38,029 nucleotides of DNA from a virus: the UHGV virus genome UHGV-0335973. One strand, given 5' to 3'. Under the pieces are notes generated by a model that was not told where the DNA came from, made no database searches, and was given only the letters and a program-made list of their open reading frames with translations. Positions 2,500-38,016 of the stretch are shown here, piece by piece. Made by a program: the position numbers and the translations under genes. How positions within the stretch are numbered: position 1 is the first letter of the stretch; every line of letters begins with the position of its first letter.

Positions 2500-3471
2500 A
2501 TGTCAATCTCCACAACGATCGTACCTCTTAATCTTCAACAAGATTTAGGGGAACAGAAGTTCTTAGGTCGTGGGTGCTTCGGTATCCACAACTACATGCA
2601 AGGTCAAGTCGTAGCTGATATTAATGGTGAAACTATCTCGGAAGAAGGGCGTTATCGTCGTTTCAACCGTGATATCAACTTGCAACTGGAGATGTTGAAT
2701 TACTGGACTCACTCTTTTCACGGTCATATTGCATCTGAAATTGAAAAGAACTTGGTTGAAACAGCAGACATTATGAACTCCATGTCTTGCTATCGTCACG
2801 TATTTACGATCACTTCGGCGAATAGTGTTGCTGTCAACCTTCGTGAGCATCCAGCAGATCAGATCTTCACAGGACTTATGCTCTTCCGTAGTATTCTGGA
2901 AGGGCAATATCGTGGAATGGATTTCCTAGCAGAAGGAATTGAAGACAGGGAAGAGTGGCTGAAGCGTAAACGCATCGGCATCGCTCTAGTGTTAGCTGGG
3001 TTGGGTCGTGACTTCTTCGGTGGATGGTCTCAACGAGGAAGAGCCAATGGGAGTAGCGAGAGCACCTCTATTGTTATTAACAACAATATGTCAGCAGCAG
3101 CATTCCTTCCTTTGGTTGTAGACTCTGATGAATATACGAAGCAAGTATGGGTTCAAAACCCTTTCGGTGTTGGTGACAACAAGGATGGTTATGTTCGCAA
3201 CCATAACCAAGATGCCTTACGAAGATTTGCTCGTGCTAAAGATCAAGACCCAGACGAGTATGAAACAATGTCAGAGTGGTTAAGACTCTGGTCCAACTGT
3301 CATGGTCACAAACGTGAATCAATAGACGACAAGTTGGGAAACATTACAGTACAAAACTTTACATCCCGACTGATTCAAAGAACTGGAGCAGATTCCGGTC
3401 TTACTCTTGAAGAAGTTGGTAACACAATCTCATCTCTCTTTTCTGAACTAGTGGAGTATTACAATGACTAA
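2500..3471 (+). CDS. hypothetical protein (323 aa)
   Basis: long ORF, overlaps next gene by 8 nt. Confidence 0.6.
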   Translation: MSISTTIVPLNLQQDLGEQKFLGRGCFGIHNYMQGQVVADINGETISEEGRYRRFNRDINLQLEMLNYWTHSFHGHIASEIEKNLVETADIMNSMSCYRHVFTITSANSVAVNLREHPADQIFTGLMLFRSILEGQYRGMDFLAEGIEDREEWLKRKRIGIALVLAGLGRDFFGGWSQRGRANGSSESTSIVINNNMSAAAFLPLVVDSDEYTKQVWVQNPFGVGDNKDGYVRNHNQDALRRFARAKDQDPDEYETMSEWLRLWSNCHGHKRESIDDKLGNITVQNFTSRLIQRTGADSGLTLEEVGNTISSLFSELVEYYND

Positions 3472-4270
3472 GCGCAATTTCTTAATAGGCAGCGACCCTG
3501 AGATGTTCGTCCGTACCAGCAACGGTATTATCACCTCTGTGGCTGGTCTGTTAGGCTGTTCTAAGGATGATAAGATCACTCTGGCTAAGGATGTTCGTCT
3601 TCAAGAGGACAACGTACTGGCTGAGTTTGATATTGACCCACAGAGCGGTTTTGAAGCGTTTAACGATAACATGCAACGTGGTATTGATCTCACCAATAAT
3701 GTCCTGAACAAACTGGACATGGAAATAGCTCCGGGTGTTAGCTCTCACATCTTCACTGAAGAAGAGATGAAAACTTTCAACGAATCAGCGTTCATCTTCG
3801 GGTGCACTCCTGATTTCAACGCCTTCACTGGTCAGAAGAATCCATCCCCGACTTCTCAGAATAAGGGACTTCGTACTGCCGGTGGTCACGTACATCTTGG
3901 TGTGGTTGGTGCTTTGGATATCACTCTGCAAACCCAGATGATGTTGGGTGTGCTGTGTGATTACTTCCTATCCCTCCCAGCAGTAATTATGGACAAAGAT
4001 ACTCGCCGTAAAGAACTCTACGGTAAAGCATCTGCAATCCGTTATAAAGACTATGGTATTGAATACCGTTCTCTGTCTAACTTCTGGATTAGTGGTCGTG
4101 AAAACCGTAAGTTTGTTTACGATCAGGTTGACAAGGTTGTTCAGCAGTGCGATATGTCCACTCTGATGGCATTGCACTCTCGTCTTCCGATTGAGAAGCT
4201 TCATGAAATCATTAACGGGAACAACGTTAAAGAAGCGGACCAGCAGATCAAACTCCTTCAGGTAGCATAA
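3464..4270 (+). CDS. amidoligase-like protein (divergent Amidoligase_2 / glutamine-synthetase-like COOH-NH2 ligase)
   Basis: N-terminal LIGSDPEMF acidic strand, GGHVHLGV and IEYRS motifs that parallel GVGIELELEG, STHVHMD and GSIEFR in the neighbouring amidoligase. Confidence 0.45.
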   Translation: MTKRNFLIGSDPEMFVRTSNGIITSVAGLLGCSKDDKITLAKDVRLQEDNVLAEFDIDPQSGFEAFNDNMQRGIDLTNNVLNKLDMEIAPGVSSHIFTEEEMKTFNESAFIFGCTPDFNAFTGQKNPSPTSQNKGLRTAGGHVHLGVVGALDITLQTQMMLGVLCDYFLSLPAVIMDKDTRRKELYGKASAIRYKDYGIEYRSLSNFWISGRENRKFVYDQVDKVVQQCDMSTLMALHSRLPIEKLHEIINGNNVKEADQQIKLLQVA

Positions 4271-19529: not shown

Positions 19530-20269
19530 GTCGTCGTCAATCACGGAAAGAATCACGGAAAGACCTTCGTCGGGAAGCACTTGTTACTCGTAAGGGTAAG
19601 CGAGAGTATGAAGAGGTGGTTTTAGCAAAGCCTGTAGTCCCTCAGAACCAGTTTCAGTCTGAGCTACTCAATGCTATTAAGACTAAACAAGTTGTGTTCA
19701 CAGACGCTCCTGCGGGCTGTGGTAAGACCTTTGTAATCACTTCCACGGTTATTGATGCACTGAAGAGTGGTAAGATTCAGAAGATCATCCTGAGTCGACC
19801 TTCGGTCGGCATGGGCAACTCTCTTGGGTTACTTCCGGGAGGAATGCGTGAGAAGTTTGAACCATACCTGATGCCTATTATTGATGTTATTACTCAGCGA
19901 TATGGTAAAGGGTTCTATGAATGCCAAATCGGAAACGGTAACATCGAATTCGTACCTCTGGAATATCTCCGTGGTCGTTCCTTCAATGATGCCATTGTTA
20001 TCGTGGATGAGTTCCAGAACACCACTAAAGATGAAGCCTTCTCCATCATGACTCGATTGGGAGAAACCTCTCAATTGTTCTGTATGGGTGATACAAACCA
20101 GCATGATATGCGTGGTCGTGAGGGTGGTCTTACTTGGGCTACTAACTTTATTGATGAACATGATCTGTATGAGTTCGCTGAGATTGTAGATGGTGAATCA
20201 GATGACATTGTTCGTTCTGGTTTCTGTAAGGCGATTGTTAAAGCAATGGAAAAAGGACAAGATGAGTGA
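19526..20269 (+). CDS. phoH: PhoH-like ATPase
   Basis: Walker A DAPAGCGKTF, Walker B IVIVDEFQN, PhoH-typical length. Confidence 0.75.
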   Translation: MSRRQSRKESRKDLRREALVTRKGKREYEEVVLAKPVVPQNQFQSELLNAIKTKQVVFTDAPAGCGKTFVITSTVIDALKSGKIQKIILSRPSVGMGNSLGLLPGGMREKFEPYLMPIIDVITQRYGKGFYECQIGNGNIEFVPLEYLRGRSFNDAIVIVDEFQNTTKDEAFSIMTRLGETSQLFCMGDTNQHDMRGREGGLTWATNFIDEHDLYEFAEIVDGESDDIVRSGFCKAIVKAMEKGQDE

Positions 20270-20451
20270 AAGCAGCTCTAGTTATTCGAGATTGTGGTGA
20301 TGGTTCAGCAACCATCGACTTCTACAAAAATATCGAACGAGCGTGTTTTGAGTGTGAAGAGTTCAATGAAGACACCTGCATGAATGATGGAGAACCTACT
20401 ATCATTGATGTTCCTGATGATTTTGTACCACCGGGAGGGTGGAGTGAGTAA
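20266..20451 (+). CDS. hypothetical protein (61 aa)
   Basis: ORF from track. Confidence 0.4.
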   Translation: MKAALVIRDCGDGSATIDFYKNIERACFECEEFNEDTCMNDGEPTIIDVPDDFVPPGGWSE

Positions 20452-20632
20452 TACTCAAGAGTCAGTAATAGAAGAGATTAAAGCTCAGATAGTTGATAAA
20501 CTCTCTATCAGGGTTGATTCTAAAGACACCAAATGCTCTGGTATATTGAAGATAGATCTTCTTTACAATGGGGAGGTTATCTCCTTTGATGAGGTATATG
20601 CCTCTGATATTAAATACTTAGCAGAGTTTTAA
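20444..20632 (+). CDS. hypothetical protein (GTG start)
   Basis: ORF overlapping upstream stop; track start 20384 is in the upstream gene. Confidence 0.35.
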   Translation: MSNTQESVIEEIKAQIVDKLSIRVDSKDTKCSGILKIDLLYNGEVISFDEVYASDIKYLAEF

Positions 20633-20686
20633 TAGCATTCATAATGTATACTCCTTAGTGTACACTGATATATTAAGGAGTTTTAA

Positions 20687-21004
20687 ATGGCAGATCATGT
20701 AGGAAAGAGAGATTATGCACAAGAAAGACGTACCGCAATTGCCCGTGGTGAGACAGGCGTTGGGAGCAAGAGCGGAGATGCTCAGCGCCACCGTGCACGT
20801 CGCATCGTTGAAAAGCGCGACGGAAAAGCTGCTGTCAGAGGTAAAGACGTTGGACACAAACGAGCTGTCAAGTCTGGAGGTTCTAATGCGTCAAGCAACT
20901 TACGTGTTGAATCAGTCAGCTCAAACCGTTCAAACGGCGGCAAAAGTGGTGATCGAGCTGGAAAAGCAGCTGGAGCACGCAAAGGAGCTTTAAGCTCATC
21001 GTAA
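20687..21004 (+). CDS. basic Gly/Ser/Lys-rich low-complexity protein (KGG-like stress protein flavour); alternative overlapping frame 20715-20993 also open
   Basis: strong TAAGGAG SD 6 nt upstream; locally GC-richer island; followed by strong terminator. Confidence 0.4.
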   Translation: MADHVGKRDYAQERRTAIARGETGVGSKSGDAQRHRARRIVEKRDGKAAVRGKDVGHKRAVKSGGSNASSNLRVESVSSNRSNGGKSGDRAGKAAGARKGALSSS

Positions 21005-21008
21005 TATG

Positions 21009-21039
21009 AGGCTACCCAAATGGGTGGCCTTTTCTTTTA
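21009..21039 (+). terminator. rho-independent terminator
   Basis: AGGCTACCCA...TGGGTGGCCT stem followed by TTTTCTTTT. Confidence 0.55.
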
Positions 21040-21073
21040 TATAAATCAAGTTGAACTTTTTTAGGTAATAAAT

Positions 21074-21328
21074 ATGTCTATTGTAAAAATCGTAAATATT
21101 TTTGATGTAACCAGAGATGGCAAGATTGTTAAGTGGACTTTCACTAACCACCACAACAAATCAAACAAGATCATCGAACGCATGATTGAGATTAACCCTA
21201 AAACAGCTCGCACTAACGTACTCCTTCGCGGAGCTGATGGAAAATTTATCTCTTATAAGAATAAGAACGTAGAAAAATCTTTCCGTGTTGCAGTAGAAAA
21301 CCTAATCCCATTCCCTAAAGGAGTTTAA
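21074..21328 (+). CDS. small protein, paralog A of tandem pair
   Basis: shares KTARTNV(L/M)LR..GKFISY and PFPKG with next ORF. Confidence 0.5.
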   Translation: MSIVKIVNIFDVTRDGKIVKWTFTNHHNKSNKIIERMIEINPKTARTNVLLRGADGKFISYKNKNVEKSFRVAVENLIPFPKGV

Positions 21329-21329
21329 T

Positions 21330-21614
21330 ATGAATAAATTAGCTATGGTTCAAATTCGAGATACTTTTCCTCTGCGTGAGAATATGAAACCACGTACTTG
21401 GTCTTACCTGCTAGCTGAGAGTAAGACTATCAACAAATATTTTGTAGAGATTGATTGTATCCCAACTAGTATCACATTACTCCCTCACAAAACAGCCAGA
21501 ACTAATGTGATGTTACGTGACAGCAAAGGTAAGTTTATCTCTTACCGTGATTCACGAATCAATAACGAAATTAAATCTGCTATGGAATCTTTAATGCCAT
21601 TCCCAAAAGGTTGA
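21330..21614 (+). CDS. small protein, paralog B of tandem pair
   Basis: same conserved motifs as 21074-21328. Confidence 0.5.
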   Translation: MNKLAMVQIRDTFPLRENMKPRTWSYLLAESKTINKYFVEIDCIPTSITLLPHKTARTNVMLRDSKGKFISYRDSRINNEIKSAMESLMPFPKG

Positions 21615-22207: not shown

Positions 22208-23558
22208 GTGAGCAACCCGGACGCTCTTCCATTTTTGACAGAGATGACTGTCGCTGATATAATCTCTAAGCAAGCAAAGCACGGAGTGAGTTTCAACCGA
22301 AGAAATGCTCGGTGGTATGTTCACCTCCTTAAAGAGATTATTGTTAATATTGACAGAGAGTTGATTCCTCTCTTACCTAAGATGAGATTAGACGGCTCTA
22401 CTTATATGAAGCCGTTTAAGAAGTCTGGAGCTTTGCAGAAGTGGCCTCAAGCTTATTGTGATAGGGTTGGACTTAAGAGAGAAGATATTGGTGGAGCTTT
22501 CACCTGTGTCGAATATGTAGACTTTGACCCATCGAAAGATGCACGAGTTAAAGAAGCTCTTATGGATGAGGGCTTTCTTCCTCCAGAGTTTAACGTATCT
22601 AAGAAGCCTTGGAATACTTTCGAAATTAAGAAAGACATGAGAAAGTATGGAACATACCAAGCATGGTATACTGCTTGGATGCGAGGCAATGCTAAGCAGA
22701 AGCAGACAGCCGAGATGGTTGACGCTGATATTAAGAAGTTCTTAGAAAAGCATTTCAGGTTTAAAACTAAGAACTACATGAAGGCTTATGTATTTGGTTT
22801 AGGTTTAAACCCTAACCGACGTAATCCTGTAACGTTTGATGAGATTAAGAAAGCACTAGCCACATCAAACAAGTGGCCTACAGCTCCTACAAACCTCGAG
22901 GAGACTCTTGAAGAAGGGTTAGGGGGTGAGCTAGGGAGTGTCGGAAGTTTGCTTAAGAGACGCGTTGTAGCGGCTCACAGGCTAGGTCTTATCAGTGGAC
23001 TCATAGCAAAGGAGCGCGAAGATGGTAAACTTTCGGCAGAAGCTAACAGCTGCGCTACGCCGACTTTTCGATTCAAACACCGTATCGTGGTTAATATTCC
23101 CTCCCGTGGTTTGTTTGGTCATGAGTGTCGCAGTTTGTTTGAATCTGACTATAACTCAGATGATGATCACTCTCGTCCTTTCGTTATTACTAACGTTGTT
23201 CCTGATGGTTGTTATATACGAAAAGGTACTAACGTAATTTATGAGAAAGGTAAACCGGGGAAGAAAGACAAACCTGTAGGTGCTTACAAATATTACATAC
23301 CCGCTGGTAAAGAAGTATTCTTAGGGTATGATGGTTCTGGGCTTGAACTTCGTATGCTCGCTCACTACCTCATTAAAGAGTGTAGGGATATGCTTGCTGA
23401 GGCAATCGAAGAGAACAATCCAGCTAAGAAAGCTCTGGCAGAACGTGGTTTAGCTTCTGCTATTATGTATCGTGATATTCTCCTTGAAGGTGATATCCAC
23501 TCCCACAACCAGAAACTTGCTGGTCTTCCTACTCGTGACAACGCTAAGACGTTTATCT
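22208..23558 (+). CDS. DNA polymerase (family A, T7 gene 5-like polymerase domain), exon 1
   Basis: motif A GYDGSGLELRMLAHY; DIHSHNQKLAGLPTRDNAKTFI = start of motif B; track stop 23558-23560 is created by the intron. Confidence 0.75.
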
Positions 23559-24264
23559 GACGTAAATGGATACTTCGAGAGTAATCTCGTCGATTAAATT
23601 GGGTGAACTCAGGGAAACTCTCTAGTAGACAATCCTGAGCCAAGCAAGTATTCTATAGCAACTCAACAAGGAGGTGCTTATGGAATATACAACTGTAACT
23701 AAAACTAAAGAAGAACAGACTGCCGAGGCAGGTAAATACCCTCAAGGTCAGTTCAACCCAAAACCTTGCCGTAATTGCTCAAAAGATTTTCAACCAAATG
23801 CACCATCTGAACATTATTGCTCTGATGGATGCAAAGATAGAGGCTGGAGAAATTCATACTTCAAACGAATGTATGGAATCACAGCCGATGATTACGAAAA
23901 GATGTACGCTGATCAGGATGGGAAGTGTGCTATCTGTAAGGGCGAAGGATTTGTAATGGCAACACATCACAGAATTAGACTTGTGGTTGATCATTGCCAT
24001 GAATCTGGAGTAATACGTGGTCTGTTGTGTCACAACTGCAACAGAGCTTTAGGGCTACTGAAAGATGATGTTAGCCGATTAGAAACAGCTATAGAATACT
24101 TGAAGGTGCAACGACTATCCGAAAGGAGTACACCGGAAGCTGATGCCGGTGGAAGCGCCCAACCCCTCGACAGAGGGTGATGATATAGTCTATCCTACAC
24201 GGCGACGTGTAGCAGTTCATAAGAGAACGGGCAGGAGTGTTGCGGCTCCTGTCGAATATACGAG
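23559..24264 (+). mobile_element. group I intron (706 nt) with endonuclease VII-type HNH ORF
   Basis: P1 pairing exon UAUCU with intron GGAUA (~23568); 5' and 3' segments homologous to intron 1 with compensatory changes in two hairpins; splicing yields KTFIYAFNYGAGD, matching T7 KTFIYGFLYGAGD spacing. Confidence 0.65.
23674..24180 (+). CDS. intron-encoded HNH endonuclease (endonuclease VII family)
   Basis: CAICKGEG...VVDHCHESGVIRGLLCHNCNRALG motif; AAGGAGG SD. Confidence 0.65.
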   Translation: MLMEYTTVTKTKEEQTAEAGKYPQGQFNPKPCRNCSKDFQPNAPSEHYCSDGCKDRGWRNSYFKRMYGITADDYEKMYADQDGKCAICKGEGFVMATHHRIRLVVDHCHESGVIRGLLCHNCNRALGLLKDDVSRLETAIEYLKVQRLSERSTPEADAGGSAQPLDRG

Positions 24265-24758
24265 ATGCGTTCAACTACGGTGCTGGCGACGCTAAGCTTG
24301 GCTCAATTGTAGGTGGTGGGGCTGACGAAGGCTCAGTGATGCGAGCACGTTTCTTAGCAGAGAACCCATGTATTGCAATCCTCATTGATCGTATGACAGA
24401 AAAGGCTGCTCAAGGGTACTTGATTGGTGTTGATGGTCGTAAGATTACAATGAGACGAGATGCCACTGGTAAAGTTATGGTTCATAAAGCCCTTAACACA
24501 CTCCTGCAATGTGCTGGTGCTGTTGTTATGAAATATGCTATGATGTTCCTCAACAAGTGGATTGAGAGGGATGGGGTTCGTTGTGCTAAGGTAATTGATA
24601 TGCACGATGAAGGTCAATTCTCAGTAAACCGTAATGATGTACAGAAACTCAAAGAGCACACTGAGCTTTGTGTTAAGAAAGCTGGTGAGTATTTGAACAT
24701 GGAATGTCCTCTGGCTTCTGATTGTCAGATTGGATTAAATTGGATGCACACACACTAA
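24265..24758 (+). CDS. DNA polymerase, exon 2 (motif B/C region)
   Basis: AFNYGAGDAKLG and NTLLQCAGAVVMK, HDEGQF matching T7 gene 5 C-terminal region; track start 24237 is intron-encoded. Confidence 0.7.
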
Positions 24759-27439: not shown

Positions 27440-27985
27440 AGAACCTGTAGTACATAAAGACTCTATCAGAGATCAATATAATGAGATGTTAAAGAAACAA
27501 GCTGATTCTAATCTTCGTTATCAGAGGATAGTAGAACAATCTAACTTTAAAGGTTTACTTGAATGGTAACTTATATTGTTTACTTCTTAGCTTTCTTAGG
27601 AATAATCTTTTTATCTATTATTCTTGAATTTGGTTTAAGTAAGTTAGTTAATTATTTAGGTAATAAGTAATTATTATTCTTTTAAATAGAGAATCAAAGT
27701 CCCTAGGAGTCCCTACAACCTAAATCAAGGATTCCTTAATTCTCTATTTTTATCTCGCAGGTGGCTCCTGCCCTTCGGTACTTGCAAGGGATTCTGTGAA
27801 TTGCCCAATATACAAGCCTGCAATAACTTTATCAGCTATACAATATATACATTACTAGTGTGTTATATCTACTACCAAAGATACTTATATTATATAGCAC
27901 TCTTATCGGTATAAGCGTAATGTATACTATACATAACCGCTCAAAGAGAGCAACAATCTTTCAAATTAAATAAGGAAATTAAAAT

Positions 27986-36700: not shown

Positions 36701-38016
36701 GCAGCACCAAGTGTATTCATAACCAGACTAGGAGAAGAAGCCTCACGGAAGCCATCATCAGTCAGGGAAGTCCAACCACGGTCTTGGTTGCTCATGAACT
36801 TAGCTGTATTATTCAGAGTGTAAGCATCTTGGATAGGATTAAAACCTTTAGGCATACCCTTCAGTTTCTTCAACCCACCAATAGCTTTCTTCATCTCTGG
36901 AGAAACGTTATCAGCCATCTTCTGTAGTTCAGCAGCTTTCTCTACGAAGTTGTTAAAGTCTTCACCATCACGAGCTTTGAATCGATTTGCTTCGTTATAG
37001 AAAGTCTTGTACGCATCAATGAAATCACGGTCAGCTTGTGTGCGATTCTTAATATCAATCGGACTGCCAGTAAAGTCACCAGAAGCTCGGAGAGAAACTA
37101 ACTCACGATCAAGATTATCCAGAACATCTGTAAGAGCTTTAGTGTTATCCTTGGTGTAGTCAGCCATTGCATCTTTCATAGCGACAGCTTGCTTCTGGTT
37201 GTGCTCATTATCAGCGAAGGCTTTACCACGAGTCTTAGCCGGAGAAGATAAAGGGTTAAGGCCCGGAATGTTGGAATGTTCTTTCTGAACAGAAGCAGCT
37301 TTCTCAGCACGAGCTTGGTCAGTATTAAGAATACGCTGAGCAGCAGGAGAATCTACAGCAACAGCATCTGTGATACGGAATCCGTTCTCGTCGAGAAGGT
37401 TCAGAGCAGAAGCAGCGTTAGCAGTTTCAGCTTTAGAGTAAGCCTCTTTCAGCTCATCAATATTCTTAGCACCACGAATCAGTTCATCATCAGCAGCAAT
37501 ATCAGTCTTCGCATACTCTGGAGTGTTCTTGAAGACAGCAGAATCCGGACGGCTAATCAAACCATGAACCCCACCAACTGCGCCACCAAATGCAGCACCC
37601 ATAGCCCCTTCTTCTATAACCCCTTCCAATGTCTTAGCTAGATCATTGTCATCACCATACTTGTTCTGAACCTCAGCAGCGCCAACAAGAGCACCACCTT
37701 TAGCACCAGCCACTGCGTTACTAGCAACGTTCTGACCAATACGACCAAGAGCTGATTCAGCTGTCCCTACAGCACCTGGAAGGATTCTTTGAGCTGCATA
37801 GTTAGCACCACCAACTAGGGCTGCATCTAGAACAGACTTATCTTCCCCCTCTTTAGGGGTTTGGTCTGCATACGCACGACCGGTCTCACGACCTGCGATG
37901 ATAGCAGCGGCAGCTAACGGGTTAGCAACTGTCAGACCAATATCGGCAACCACCCCAGCATACTGACCAGCAGATTTACCAATCCCATCCTCAATCTTAT
38001 CCATACGTTCTTTCAA
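33763..38016 (-). CDS. giant virion-associated protein (putative internal/ejection protein), 1417 aa or longer
   Basis: single uninterrupted - strand ORF; N-terminal Gly/Ala-rich hydrophobic segments, long charged coiled-coil-like central and C-terminal regions; no stop between start 38016 and window end. Confidence 0.5.
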   Translation of the reverse strand: MKERMDKIEDGIGKSAGQYAGVVADIGLTVANPLAAAAIIAGRETGRAYADQTPKEGEDKSVLDAALVGGANYAAQRILPGAVGTAESALGRIGQNVASNAVAGAKGGALVGAAEVQNKYGDDNDLAKTLEGVIEEGAMGAAFGGAVGGVHGLISRPDSAVFKNTPEYAKTDIAADDELIRGAKNIDELKEAYSKAETANAASALNLLDENGFRITDAVAVDSPAAQRILNTDQARAEKAASVQKEHSNIPGLNPLSSPAKTRGKAFADNEHNQKQAVAMKDAMADYTKDNTKALTDVLDNLDRELVSLRASGDFTGSPIDIKNRTQADRDFIDAYKTFYNEANRFKARDGEDFNNFVEKAAELQKMADNVSPEMKKAIGGLKKLKGMPKGFNPIQDAYTLNNTAKFMSNQDRGWTSLTDDGFREASSPSLVMNTLGAAKYALNRFSSQRARSQRVKQQESNSEAIRSLARGDLEVARAKSTADEARAKMEEEPVVDDIKFKTQNDVETEPVREPSSSTVTEENLPSSAPQESPLTARDLVAQRRAIRQAEQRRAEEEAAAAQEVPVEQTPQAEPLPARNPLEERRAMEQQRAQEEGQKVSSEDVSSVTKESLSHYTEDGILSQDLNGNIALRLNQFTPAEQQFLRNHNLVDSNDMVKASSLRQADPLPASAPKAPKEAVQDVKPASGVERLAAMSSAARQATKDRAERFARSLYSKAAKAKATAENFLAYKGDPKELMRRIRQEDNAINTERHEEMARNQLASQQGIATAKNNTVRTNFAEWVKERGLPEDIATKALRAEEKGLGGNVTNLDSLKRRAERLYQKQREDEFDRLYQQALEENKAFDNKNAPKLVDQKKELQSEIDALIDSEPLRPAQKDAMRKLMNDFVDGKFKSSEKAGREEALEVGQMKDIWDGFINTYNREVNAFNKANKNSQYEAFAKHIQAREERLATLKNKAQARSDAKAAVENERKTLEAIAAQKSEIEKMMEGLPKPVREAQESRTLKQLAAHHDKNSPVPPEKFRSYIERIHNAESDYLDRQRRLTDAEEDARQAKWNKMYEQAEEMNRKFDVDKRVKRSEELKAAQERENDLMAVQRQRDDIHRRLMRTMEDKGISREDAEVFAGSYMDNRYALLEKPMTPTEHQNARSRIEADVEKFAKKYESMTPIEKEIVKVTGDTEGKLDNLDADTRKAIEEAQKVDSDIKKLQEEELEMEKIRSALPDDERSQANSDILESIKQQEEVFADKVEKAFLSGKSLDELASVAEVLDRVHGADKAGNNRRFVRALQTAAENKKKYGDNPVAWFSADDYSAIAKLGASSAGGNKSRALEKIFGSTAEQAKSKLLGRDDVAKMRRVIEENPDIKIPSYKTTNRTEYLQFLEKFNDEGKPKIKRGSLSEKLERSKRQSRLRVRVRPKE

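What the first reader, a model, noticed from the sequence alone, without database searches (positions are those of the whole stretch)
20687..21004. GC-richer island with two long overlapping ORFs in different frames
A locally GC-richer segment encodes a basic Gly/Ser/Lys-rich low-complexity protein (20687-21004, strong TAAGGAG SD) and, in another frame, a helical protein (20715-20993). It cannot be decided from sequence which is expressed, or whether both are. The island is followed by a strong terminator and may be horizontally acquired.
Basis: seen in the sequence. Interest (0 to 1): 0.45.

Follow-up and report, generated by a model that had tools for sequence, protein, structure and literature searches.

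The report
Small HNH-like phage gene, spurious overlap
The "two overlapping genes" are one real, expressed phage gene (a small, very basic HNH-nuclease-like protein of the DNA-replication module) plus a chance open reading frame, and the GC-rich look comes from the protein's glycine/alanine/arginine content rather than foreign origin.

Summary
The window is a phiEco32-like (Kuravirus) coliphage. ORF 20687-21004 is the homolog of phiEco32 gene 58. Both ORFs, the SD, the GC bump and the terminator are real.

The ambiguity can be resolved:
- The 105-aa frame has dN/dS of about 0.1 and belongs to PHROG 4590.
- It has homologs in 254 phage records across many genera.
- An identical protein (SU10 gp56, 10.8 kDa) was detected by mass spectrometry.
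- The +1 ORF has no homologs outside DNA-level relatives and takes most substitutions at its codon position 2.
- It is broken in AT-richer relatives, and is 4-8% likely by chance given the frame-1 protein.

The GC excess sits in codon positions 1 and 2 (63/59%), while GC3 is 33%. The genome's own codon usage predicts it (50.9% against 51.7% observed), so it is not evidence of horizontal transfer.

The gene has its own gp36-type middle promoter (TAATGTATA), SD and terminator. The product is a Cys-less, divergent HNH (beta-beta-alpha-Me) protein that is co-inherited with exonuclease-less family-A DNA polymerases and better conserved than they are. Its exact role is unknown; it is probably a DNA nicking or processing enzyme.

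This is an ordinary gene and an uncharacterised subfamily.

The parts
20642..20650 (+). phi32_gp36-type (phage sigma factor) middle promoter element TAATGTATA. The transcription start is inferred 6-8 bp downstream, at about 20656-20658.
   Evidence: Exact match to the motif; 3 matches in the window against 0.33 expected. The consensus tAATGTAtA and the start-site distance come from PMC8948821. PMC4281155 places a middle promoter with this motif between SU10 CDS56 and CDS57, and SU10_056 is this gene. The block is conserved in 10 of 12 diverged copies. The start site itself was not mapped here.
20674..20680 (+). Shine-Dalgarno sequence TAAGGAG, 6 nt upstream of the ATG.
   Evidence: Read directly from the sequence. 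Conserved as AAGGAG in 10 of 12 relatives.
20687..21004 (+). Real gene: homolog of phiEco32 phi32_58 and SU10 gp56. 105 aa, 10.9 kDa, pI 11.5, net charge about +15. Member of PHROG 4590.
   Evidence: PHROG 4590 at E = 7.7e-41. Annotated CDS phi32_58. dN/dS 0.10-0.12. Variable sites 24/14/54 by codon position. 254 phage records carry it. Peptides of the 104/104-identical SU10 gp56 were detected.
20708..20803 (+). Conserved N-terminal block (aa 8-39: RDYaQERrTAIaRGETGvGSkSGDAqRHRARR). Predicted helix-loop-helix; specific to this family.
   Evidence: Invariant or near-invariant columns R8, E13, A17, R20-T23, G26, S29, D31, R34, H35, A37-R39. R8 and Y10 are invariant even in the wider family. AF2 helices at 10-20 and 30-45.
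20846..20944 (+). HNH-like beta-beta-alpha core (aa 54-86: DVGHKRAVKSGGSNASSNLRVESVSSNRSNGGK). H57 is codon 20855-20857, N71 is 20897-20899, N80 is 20924-20926. G56 (20852-20854) replaces the family's usual Asp.
20936..21001 (+). Basic Gly/Lys/Ala-rich C-terminal tail (aa 84-105). Predicted helical, less conserved, variable in length.
   Evidence: Alignment columns G84, G85, G88, K93 and K99 are conserved and the rest vary. AF2 helix 90-103.
20715..20993 (+). Alternative +1-frame ORF (92 aa). Judged not to be a gene.
   Evidence: No family hit. Homologs only in the 99 records that already match at DNA level, with faster decay. 54 of 92 variable sites fall on its codon position 2. Apparent dN/dS 1.5-2.8, like the nonsense +2 frame. 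Broken in Aeromonas LAh_6 and Vibrio SJSY21. Weak SD context.
21008..21041 (+). Intrinsic terminator: stem-loop 21008-21031 followed by a T-run.
   Evidence: The stem is invariant and the loop varies in six diverged relatives. Annotated as a terminator in SU7.

Best explanation
Only the 105-aa frame (20687-21004) is a gene. It is the phiEco32 gene-58 / SU10 gp56 ortholog and forms a compact unit of its own. A phage-sigma (gp36) middle promoter, TAATGTATA, sits at 20642-20650, with a leader of about 30 nt. Then come a strong SD, the CDS, and an intrinsic terminator at 21008-21041.

The +1 ORF is a by-product of a protein rich in Gly/Ala/Arg/Ser/Lys and poor in hydrophobic residues. Such a protein uses few codons that create stop codons in the +1 frame. 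The same composition, not foreign origin, makes the segment GC-rich.

Most likely mechanism (inferred, not shown): it binds DNA through its basic surfaces and, with H57 as general base and N80 (plus D56 in most relatives) holding a divalent metal, nicks or processes phage DNA during replication or recombination at middle times of infection.

Shown: the coding frame, expression of the protein, the signals, the conservation pattern and the predicted fold. Inferred: promoter use in this phage, nuclease activity, the substrate and the biological role.
For: Coding frame:
- Codon-position variation is 24/14/54.
- dN/dS is 0.10-0.12 with dS up to 0.61.
- PHROG 4590 at E = 8e-41.
- 254 phage records in at least 10 host genera at 45-70% identity.
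- 200 metagenomic relatives.
- SU10 gp56 is 104/104 identical, has a computed mass of 10,827 Da, and was found by MS as a 10.8-kDa middle protein with 2 peptides.

Composition:
- GC1/2/3 is 63/59/33% against a genome average of 52/38/39%.
- Predicted GC is 50.9% against 51.7% observed.
- Gly + Ala + Arg make up 44% of residues.

Signals:
- Promoter motif.
- Terminator.

HNH assignment:
- Invariant H57, N71 and N80.
- AF2 beta-beta-alpha unit at pLDDT 82.5.
- Foldseek PDB hits are dominated by HNH.
- BFVD hits are small 'HNHc domain' phage proteins at E down to 1.5e-4.
- 28 of 40 relatives touch Pfam HNH and 14 of 40 touch HNH_3.
- Distant relatives P0209 and P0213 pass the Pfam gathering scores.

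Replication-module core gene:
- The gene lies 0.4-2 kb upstream of the DNA polymerase in six genera, and between the polymerase halves in LUZ24.
- Record counts per genus match those of the polymerase.
- It is 60-70% identical where the polymerase is 34-47% and PhoH 31%.
- SU10 CDS56 is listed among the genes shared by all C3 phages.
Against: - The window's own copy gives no Pfam HNH hit.
- A family profile finds no PDB sequence even at E <= 10.
- The Asp of the usual 'DH' dipeptide, a metal ligand in I-HmuI, T4 endonuclease VII and Cas9 (my own knowledge), is Gly in all 12 Kuravirus/Suseptimavirus copies examined and in several distant branches. Catalysis may therefore be weakened or lost.
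- No nuclease assay or mutant phenotype was found for any member.
- The MS search in SU10 used predicted CDSs only, so it proves frame 1 but cannot by itself exclude frame 2.
- The promoter's activity at this exact site was not seen in a primary source, because Pavlova 2012 is not held.
Confidence: 0.8

Rival explanations
1. Dual coding: both the 105-aa frame and the 92-aa +1 frame are translated, giving a true overlapping gene pair.
For: The +1 ORF is open in all 12 Kuravirus/Suseptimavirus copies examined (window plus 11 relatives) and in LUZ24, where GenBank annotated that frame as gp26. Openness is somewhat unlikely by chance, at 4-8.5%.
Against: - It has no homologs beyond DNA-level relatives and no family hit.
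- 54 of 92 variable sites fall on its codon position 2.
- Its apparent dN/dS is 1.5-2.8, the same as the nonsense +2 frame.
- Its product falls to 64-70% identity where frame 1 keeps 88-90%.
- The frame is broken in Aeromonas LAh_6 and Vibrio SJSY21.
- Its ATG is forced by the invariant Tyr10 codon plus Ala11, and its SD context is poor.
- With about 130 genes per genome, several 4-8% events are expected.
Confidence: 0.03
2. A recently acquired foreign island or mobile element, for example a free-standing HNH homing endonuclease gene dropped into the replication module.
For: There is a local GC bump. The motif is HNH-like. Real homing endonuclease genes do insert right next to this gene in some relatives (Bas89, 4E8, EcoN5), and an intron with an endonuclease sits in this window's polymerase gene. 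The very high cross-genus identity could superficially suggest transfer.
Against: - GC3 is 33%, below the genome mean of 39%, and the GC is fully predicted by the amino-acid content.
- The gene is present at the same locus in all 99 related records.
- Per-genus record counts equal those of the polymerase lineage.
- Synteny is conserved across genera.
- dN/dS is about 0.1.
- There is no extra DNA-recognition domain.
- The gene has its own phage-specific promoter.
Confidence: 0.05
3. A non-catalytic nucleic-acid-binding protein built on a relic HNH fold. Examples would be a DNA- or RNA-coating protein or a polymerase/replisome accessory factor, with no nuclease role, at least in Kuravirus.
For: - G56 replaces the metal-ligand Asp in the Kuravirus/Suseptimavirus copies examined and recurrently elsewhere.
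- Net charge is about +15 and pI 11.5.
- Expression signals are strong and dedicated.
- The most conserved block is the N-terminal, non-HNH part.
- It is conserved more tightly than the polymerase, as expected for a protein with many contacts.
Against: H57 is invariant even in the wide family and N80 nearly so, and N71 is invariant in the subfamily. That is hard to explain without a metal or catalytic site. In 5 of the 8 G56-type sequences in alignment A5, counting the window copy, D54 lies two residues upstream on the same strand and could substitute for D56; this is inference.
Confidence: 0.3
4. A terminase-associated HNH packaging factor of the HK97 gp74 / GVE2 HNHE type that stimulates terminase cutting of concatemers.
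Against: - The gene is not next to terminase or portal genes. It lies in the middle/replication cluster (SU10 CDS56, against the terminase at CDS5) and next to PhoH and the polymerase in every genus examined.
- It is transcribed from a middle promoter.
- It lacks the [CxxC]2 zinc site described as typical of that group in PMC3592412 (abstract seen).
Confidence: 0.07

Closest known systems
PHROG 4590 / phiEco32 phi32_58 / SU10 gp56 ('hypothetical protein'; named 'HNH endonuclease' or 'McrA' in a few records)
   Same: Full-length match at E = 7.7e-41. The 105-aa translation is identical to phiEco32's, and the first 104 residues are identical to the 104-aa SU10 protein.
   Different: Nothing differs; this is the family it belongs to. 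The family has no assigned function, no Pfam or NCBIfam model and no solved structure.
Small stand-alone phage/bacterial HNH nicking endonucleases: GVE2 HNHE (PDB 5H0O), Gme HNH (4H9D), HK97 gp74 type
   Different: - It has no Cys4 zinc site; there are no Cys residues at all.
- It is not adjacent to the terminase.
- It carries a family-specific N-terminal RDY...RGETG.GS.SGDA.RHRARR block and a basic Gly/Lys tail.
- The Asp of the 'DH' dipeptide is Gly in this copy.
- Sequence similarity is undetectable by profile-versus-PDB search.
HNH_3 / I-HmuI-type homing endonucleases (PF13392; PDB 1U3E)
   Different: There is no DNA-recognition extension. It is a fixed core gene with low dN/dS rather than a sporadic mobile gene.
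T4 endonuclease VII (Pfam Endonuclease_7), a beta-beta-alpha-Me junction-resolving enzyme of a phage DNA-metabolism module
   Same: The same superfamily fold and a D-H...N catalytic logic (my own knowledge). Both lie among replication and recombination genes.
   Different: There is no sequence hit to PF02945. By contrast, the intron ORF at 23674-24180 in this same window hits it at 7e-24. There is also no zinc site and no dimerisation domain.

Membership tests
PHROG 4590 (phi32_58-like proteins) | Significant full-length match to the family profile | tested here: met
   E = 7.7e-41, residues 4-101 matching profile positions 2-99 of 100.
HNH / beta-beta-alpha-Me nuclease superfamily | Two antiparallel strands followed by a helix (beta-beta-alpha fold) | tested here: met
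HNH / beta-beta-alpha-Me nuclease superfamily | Conserved His (general base) at the end of strand 1 | tested here: met
   H57 is invariant in 121 close relatives and 28 distant ones.
HNH / beta-beta-alpha-Me nuclease superfamily | Structural Asn before strand 2, and Asn/His metal ligand in the helix | tested here: met
   N71 and N80 are invariant in A2. N80 is at least 90% conserved in the wide family, while N71 is more variable there.
HNH / beta-beta-alpha-Me nuclease superfamily | Acidic or His residue immediately before the catalytic His (the 'DH'/'HH' metal ligand) | tested here: not met
   The window copy has G56 (VGH). More than 90% of relatives in the 40-sequence alignment A1 have D56. 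All 12 Kuravirus/Suseptimavirus copies examined have Gly. So the feature is met for the family but not for this copy.
HNH / beta-beta-alpha-Me nuclease superfamily | Match to the Pfam HNH-clan models above the gathering score | tested here: inconclusive
   The window copy gives no hit. 28 of 40 relatives hit PF01844 (best E 5e-4) and 14 of 40 hit PF13392 (7.5e-5). The distant relatives P0209 (24.1 bits against 21.4) and P0213 (25.8 against 24.8) pass.
HNH / beta-beta-alpha-Me nuclease superfamily | Metal-dependent nuclease activity | not testable with these tools
   This needs a biochemical assay. No published assay of any member was found.
Terminase-associated HNH packaging proteins (HK97 gp74 type) | Gene adjacent to the terminase, portal or cos site | tested here: not met
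   The gene lies between PhoH and the DNA polymerase in the middle cluster. In SU10 it is CDS56, whereas the terminase is CDS5.
Terminase-associated HNH packaging proteins (HK97 gp74 type) | [CxxC]2 zinc-binding site around the HNH motif | tested here: not met
   The protein has no cysteine, and none is conserved in the family alignments.
Free-standing homing endonuclease genes | Sporadic presence or absence among close relatives, and insertion next to or into a conserved target gene | tested here: not met
   The gene is present at the same locus in all 99 related records. Its per-genus counts match the polymerase lineage. dN/dS is about 0.1.
Overlapping (dual-coding) gene pair | Purifying selection and conservation of the second frame beyond what the first frame imposes | tested here: not met
   
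phi32_gp36-dependent middle/late promoters of phiEco32-like phages | Single element tAATGTAtA, 6-8 bp upstream of the start site, located upstream of middle or late genes | tested here: met
   Exact TAATGTATA at 20642-20650. The consensus comes from PMC8948821, and the location agrees with the SU10 description. Use of the start site in this phage was not tested.

The most novel reading that the evidence does not exclude
Probability: 0.15. Interest if true: 0.55.

Novelty: new member of a known kind. Interest (0 to 1): 0.22.

Why it matters
For the finding as posed, the result is a clean negative. There is no overlapping gene pair and no foreign island, only one ordinary, already-annotated phage gene whose amino-acid content creates both illusions.

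There are two modest points of value.

First, the same illusion misled GenBank annotation of phage LUZ24, where gp26 ('contains transmembrane domain') is called in the non-coding +1 frame. The 'membrane protein' ORFs at the same position in tf and UFV-P2 probably have the same cause. Their true products are homologs of this protein, so the annotations should be corrected.

Second, the real product belongs to an uncharacterised, Cys-less HNH-like subfamily. It is the best-conserved protein of a replication module shared by several phage genera used in therapy research, including Kuravirus and Bruynoghevirus. That makes it a reasonable target for a simple biochemical and genetic study.

Tried and rejected
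- **tf nick motif.** I tested whether the tf nick-site consensus TACTRTGMC (PMC3517423) is enriched or strand-biased in the window, as expected if this protein were that nickase with the same specificity. It gave 14 hits at one mismatch or fewer against 26 expected, and one exact hit. No support; a different specificity is not excluded.
- **PDB sequence profile.** The family profile against PDB sequences gave no hit even at E <= 10.
- **NCBIfam and PADLOC.** No family was found, only trivial IscB-HNH touches at E of about 3e-3. There is no sign of a defence or anti-defence family.
- **Fusion proteins.** Long proteins carrying the domain at the C-terminus (P0210, P0214, P0220, P0229) have N-terminal parts with no Pfam or PHROG match, so they gave no functional hint.
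- **Papers not held.** The primary phiEco32 papers (Pavlova 2012, PMC3275717; Savalia 2008, PMC2587145) are not held. The promoter assignment therefore rests on the consensus quoted in PMC8948821 and the SU10 description.
- **AFDB50.** The fold library was not available.
- **Antisense ORFs.** The ORFs at 20782-20982 and 20639-20857 have no family hits and were not pursued.
- **Walker-A idea.** I considered reading GETGVGSKS as a Walker-A loop and rejected it by inspection, because the Lys is one residue out of register with GxxxxGK[ST].

Full report
**1.

A 3-kb stretch around the finding matches 99 phage records at 80-99% DNA identity, nearly all Escherichia/Shigella phages of the phiEco32 group (Kuravirus, Gordonclarkvirinae). 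The ORF at 20687..21004 corresponds to phiEco32 CDS phi32_58, annotated 'hypothetical protein'. It lies between a PhoH-like gene and the DNA polymerase gene.

- Both ORFs exist at the stated coordinates: 105 aa in one frame, and 92 aa at 20715..20993 in the +1 frame.
- TAAGGAG lies 6 nt upstream of the first ATG.
- The segment is 51.3% GC against 42.1% for the window, in the top 0.56% of 318-nt windows.
- A 10-bp GC-rich hairpin plus T-run follows at 21008-21041 (z = -4.4).

**2. Which frame is the gene**

Four independent lines point to the 105-aa frame alone.

(a) Homology.
- The 105-aa product matches PHROG 4590 at E = 7.7e-41. The 92-aa product and the two antisense ORFs match nothing.
- By tblastn, the 105-aa product is found in 254 phage records from Escherichia, Pseudomonas, Aeromonas, Proteus, Salmonella, Cronobacter, Vibrio, Photobacterium and even a Planktothrix cyanophage, at 44-70% identity.
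- The 92-aa product is found only in the 99 records that already match at DNA level. Its identity decays much faster, for example 64% in Bas89 where frame 1 keeps 88%.

(b) Substitution pattern.
- In 12 Kuravirus/Suseptimavirus copies (the window plus 11 relatives), variable sites fall 24/14/54 on frame-1 codon positions 1/2/3.
- Those 54 sites are position 2 of the +1 frame, where every change alters the amino acid.
- Nei-Gojobori dN/dS is 0.10-0.12 for frame 1 in the diverged pairs (dS up to 0.61). It is 1.5-2.8 for the +1 frame, indistinguishable from the nonsense +2 frame at 2.5-4.4.

(c) ORF conservation.
- The +1 frame is open in the 12 close copies and in GC-richer LUZ24.
- It is broken in Aeromonas LAh_6 and Vibrio SJSY21, where no ORF in that frame exceeds 45 aa.
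- Given the frame-1 protein, openness is expected in 8.5% of synonymous recodings and 4.0% of codon shuffles. That is unremarkable for a genome of about 130 genes.
- The +1 ATG is created by the invariant Tyr10 codon plus Ala11, and its SD context is weak.

(d) Peptides.
- In phage SU10, mass spectrometry identified the CDS56 product: 10.8 kDa, 2 peptides, 18.3% coverage, listed as a middle-gene product (PMC4281155 Table 2).
- SU10_056 is the frame-1 ORF, is 104/104 identical to the window protein, and has a computed mass of 10,827 Da.
- Caveat: that search used predicted CDSs only. It proves frame 1 is expressed but does not by itself exclude frame 2.

**3. The GC island**

The excess GC is in codon positions 1 and 2 (62.9% and 59.0%, against 51.9% and 37.7% for the pooled long + strand ORFs of the window). 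GC3 is 33.3%, below the pooled value of 38.8%.

Encoding this amino-acid sequence with the window's own codon usage predicts 50.9% GC, and 51.7% is observed over the same 105 codons. Gly, Ala and Arg together make up 44% of residues. The island is therefore a consequence of the protein's composition.

The gene's distribution also argues against recent acquisition:
- tblastn with the neighbouring polymerase returns the same record counts per genus as the small protein: Escherichia 95/95, Aeromonas 11/11, Proteus 8/8, Salmonella 7/7, Cronobacter 6/6, Shigella 3/3 and Bruynoghevirus 2/2.
- The gene order PhoH / small gene / small ORFs / polymerase recurs across genera.

**4. Expression signals**

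The motif TAATGTATA at 20642-20650 is an exact match to the single-element promoter recognised by the phiEco32 sigma factor gp36. The consensus is tAATGTAtA, with the start site 6-8 bp downstream (PMC8948821). The window has three such sites against 0.33 expected.

The SU10 paper places one of three middle promoters with this motif between CDS56 and CDS57, which is this position.

The promoter-leader-SD block is conserved in 10 of 12 diverged copies, even where the upstream gene differs. SU7 and ES17 have a different upstream region. The terminator stem is invariant while its loop varies.

The gene therefore looks like a short transcription unit of about 0.38 kb, expressed at middle times. The start and end points are inferred, not mapped here.

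**5. What the protein is**

Basic properties:
- It is 105 aa, with pI 11.5, net charge about +15 and no Cys, Trp, Phe or Pro.
- In 121 relatives, A17, G26, S29, D31, H35, A37, H57, G64, N71 and N80 are invariant.
- In a wider set of 28 distant representatives, R8, Y10 and H57 are invariant, and N80 and G65 are at least 90% conserved.

HNH assignment:
- The C-terminal half, V-[DG]-H57-K..(x)..GGSN..S-N71-L-R-V.S.S.-N80-RS.GGK, has the spacing of an HNH (His-Asn-Asn) motif. Ser occupies the positions where many HNH proteins have Cys; this comparison is by eye and from my own knowledge.
- Tests of that lead: the window copy alone gives no Pfam hit, but 28 of 40 relatives touch PF01844 (best E 5e-4) and 14 of 40 touch PF13392 HNH_3 (7.5e-5).
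- Two distant relatives pass the Pfam gathering scores.
- An AF2 model built on the 121-sequence alignment is confident (pLDDT 82.5). It has strand 54-57 ending in H57, strand 72-75 following N71, and helix 77-86 containing N80. That is the beta-beta-alpha-Me arrangement.
- Foldseek against the PDB is not significant, but its hits are also HNH-dominated.
- BFVD returns small phage 'HNHc domain' proteins at E down to 1.5e-4.
- A profile search of PDB sequences finds nothing, and no NCBIfam or PADLOC family applies.

The protein is therefore a divergent, zinc-finger-less member of the HNH superfamily. It has a family-specific N-terminal helical hairpin (RDY..QE...RGETG.GS.SGDA.RHRARR) and a basic tail.

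One feature is not met in this copy. The residue before the catalytic His is Asp in more than 90% of relatives in the 40-sequence alignment. It is Gly in all 12 Kuravirus/Suseptimavirus copies examined and, independently, in several distant branches. In I-HmuI, T4 endonuclease VII and Cas9 the equivalent Asp ligates the metal (my own knowledge). Activity may therefore be altered or lost here.

**6. Family size and context**

An exhaustive profile search of 1.84 billion cluster representatives finds 439 clusters at E <= 1e-3, 49 at <= 1e-10 and 5 at <= 1e-30. Almost all are stand-alone proteins of 80-110 aa. A few long proteins carry the domain at the C-terminus, but their N-terminal parts match nothing known.

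Across genera the small protein is 60-70% identical where the adjacent polymerase is 34-47% and PhoH 31%. It is the best-conserved protein of the module.

PMC9965538 notes that a polymerase separated from its exonuclease domains is shared by Kuravirus, 7-11, Privateer, Vp_R1 and BUCT695. These are the groups that carry this gene. In LUZ24 it sits between 'DNA polymerase part I' (the exonuclease) and 'part II'.

**7. Mechanism and rivals**

The best-supported reading is a DNA-binding, probably metal-dependent nicking or processing enzyme of the replication/recombination module. It would be expressed from its own middle promoter. This step is inferred.

- A non-catalytic DNA-binding role is a serious rival (about 0.3) because of G56.
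- A terminase-associated packaging HNH is unlikely, given the wrong genomic location, the middle expression class and the absence of a zinc site.
- A mobile homing endonuclease is unlikely, given the fixed locus, a phyletic pattern identical to the polymerase, and low dN/dS.
- A specific lead was that this might be the unidentified nickase behind the strand-specific TACTRTGMC nicks of LUZ24-group phage tf (PMC3517423). It got no support from motif counts in this window, but a different specificity cannot be excluded.

**8. Novelty and verdict**

The finding as posed resolves to an ordinary, already-annotated gene plus a compositional artefact. The residual interest is modest: an uncharacterised Cys-less HNH subfamily tightly linked to one polymerase lineage, and the fact that the same +1-frame illusion produced a wrong annotation in LUZ24, where gp26 is called as a 'transmembrane' protein. 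The 'membrane protein' ORFs at the same position in tf (tf_29) and UFV-P2 (ORF33) probably have the same cause, but I did not check their frames.

Noticed in passing
window 23559-24264 (within the DNA polymerase gene, 22208-24706+): Relative to phiEco32, the polymerase gene is interrupted by a 706-bp insertion. It matches the Rfam group I intron model (RF00028) at 23544-24212 with 42.7 bits, below the 50-bit gathering score, at E = 2.3e-9. It contains a 168-aa ORF (23674-24180) that hits Pfam Endonuclease_7 at E = 7e-24. This is an intron with an EndoVII/HNH-type homing endonuclease.
   Followed up: partly
L012 (LUZ24) 3468-3783; also tf_29 and UFV-P2 ORF33: In LUZ24 the GenBank CDS gp26 ('contains transmembrane domain', 3514-3783) is in the +1 frame. 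The true homolog of this protein is the unannotated 103-aa ORF at 3468-3779. The 'conserved hypothetical membrane protein' at the same position in tf and UFV-P2 looks like the same mis-call, but I did not check their frames.
   Followed up: partly
Just downstream of the gene's stop codon, window about 21005; loci L002, L005, L007, L008, L010, L011: The spot between the gene's stop codon and its terminator is an insertion hotspot. WFI101126, ES17 and SU10 carry an extra 294-nt ORF (SU10_055-like). Bas89, 4E8 and EK010 carry a 495-nt ORF there, annotated as an HNH homing endonuclease in Bas89 and 4E8 (as 'baseplate subunit' in EK010), that overlaps the stop codon.
   Followed up: no
window 21074-21328 and 21330-21614: Two adjacent small ORFs (84 and 94 aa) look like tandem paralogs. 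Both end in ...KTARTNV(L/M)LR..GKFISY(K/R)....(L/M)(I/M)PFPKG. Neither has a Pfam hit.
   Followed up: no
window 27846-27854 (-) and 27918-27926 (+): Two more exact TAATGTATA elements lie 64 bp apart on opposite strands. They may be a pair of divergent gp36-type promoters.
   Followed up: no
L003 (SU7) and L008 (ES17), about 100 nt upstream of the gene: These two relatives lack the conserved promoter-leader block and have a different upstream sequence and SD. In them the gene is probably transcribed by read-through from upstream.
   Followed up: no
window 20266-20632: Where phiEco32 has a single 333-nt gene 59, this window has two short overlapping ORFs: 20266-20451, and one ending at 20632. 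This matches the arrangement in WFI101126 (gp056 and gp055).
   Followed up: no
window 24014-24464 and 37580-38008: These are the only other 318-nt stretches as GC-rich as the finding. The first overlaps the 3' end of the intron and the start of the polymerase's second exon.
   Followed up: no
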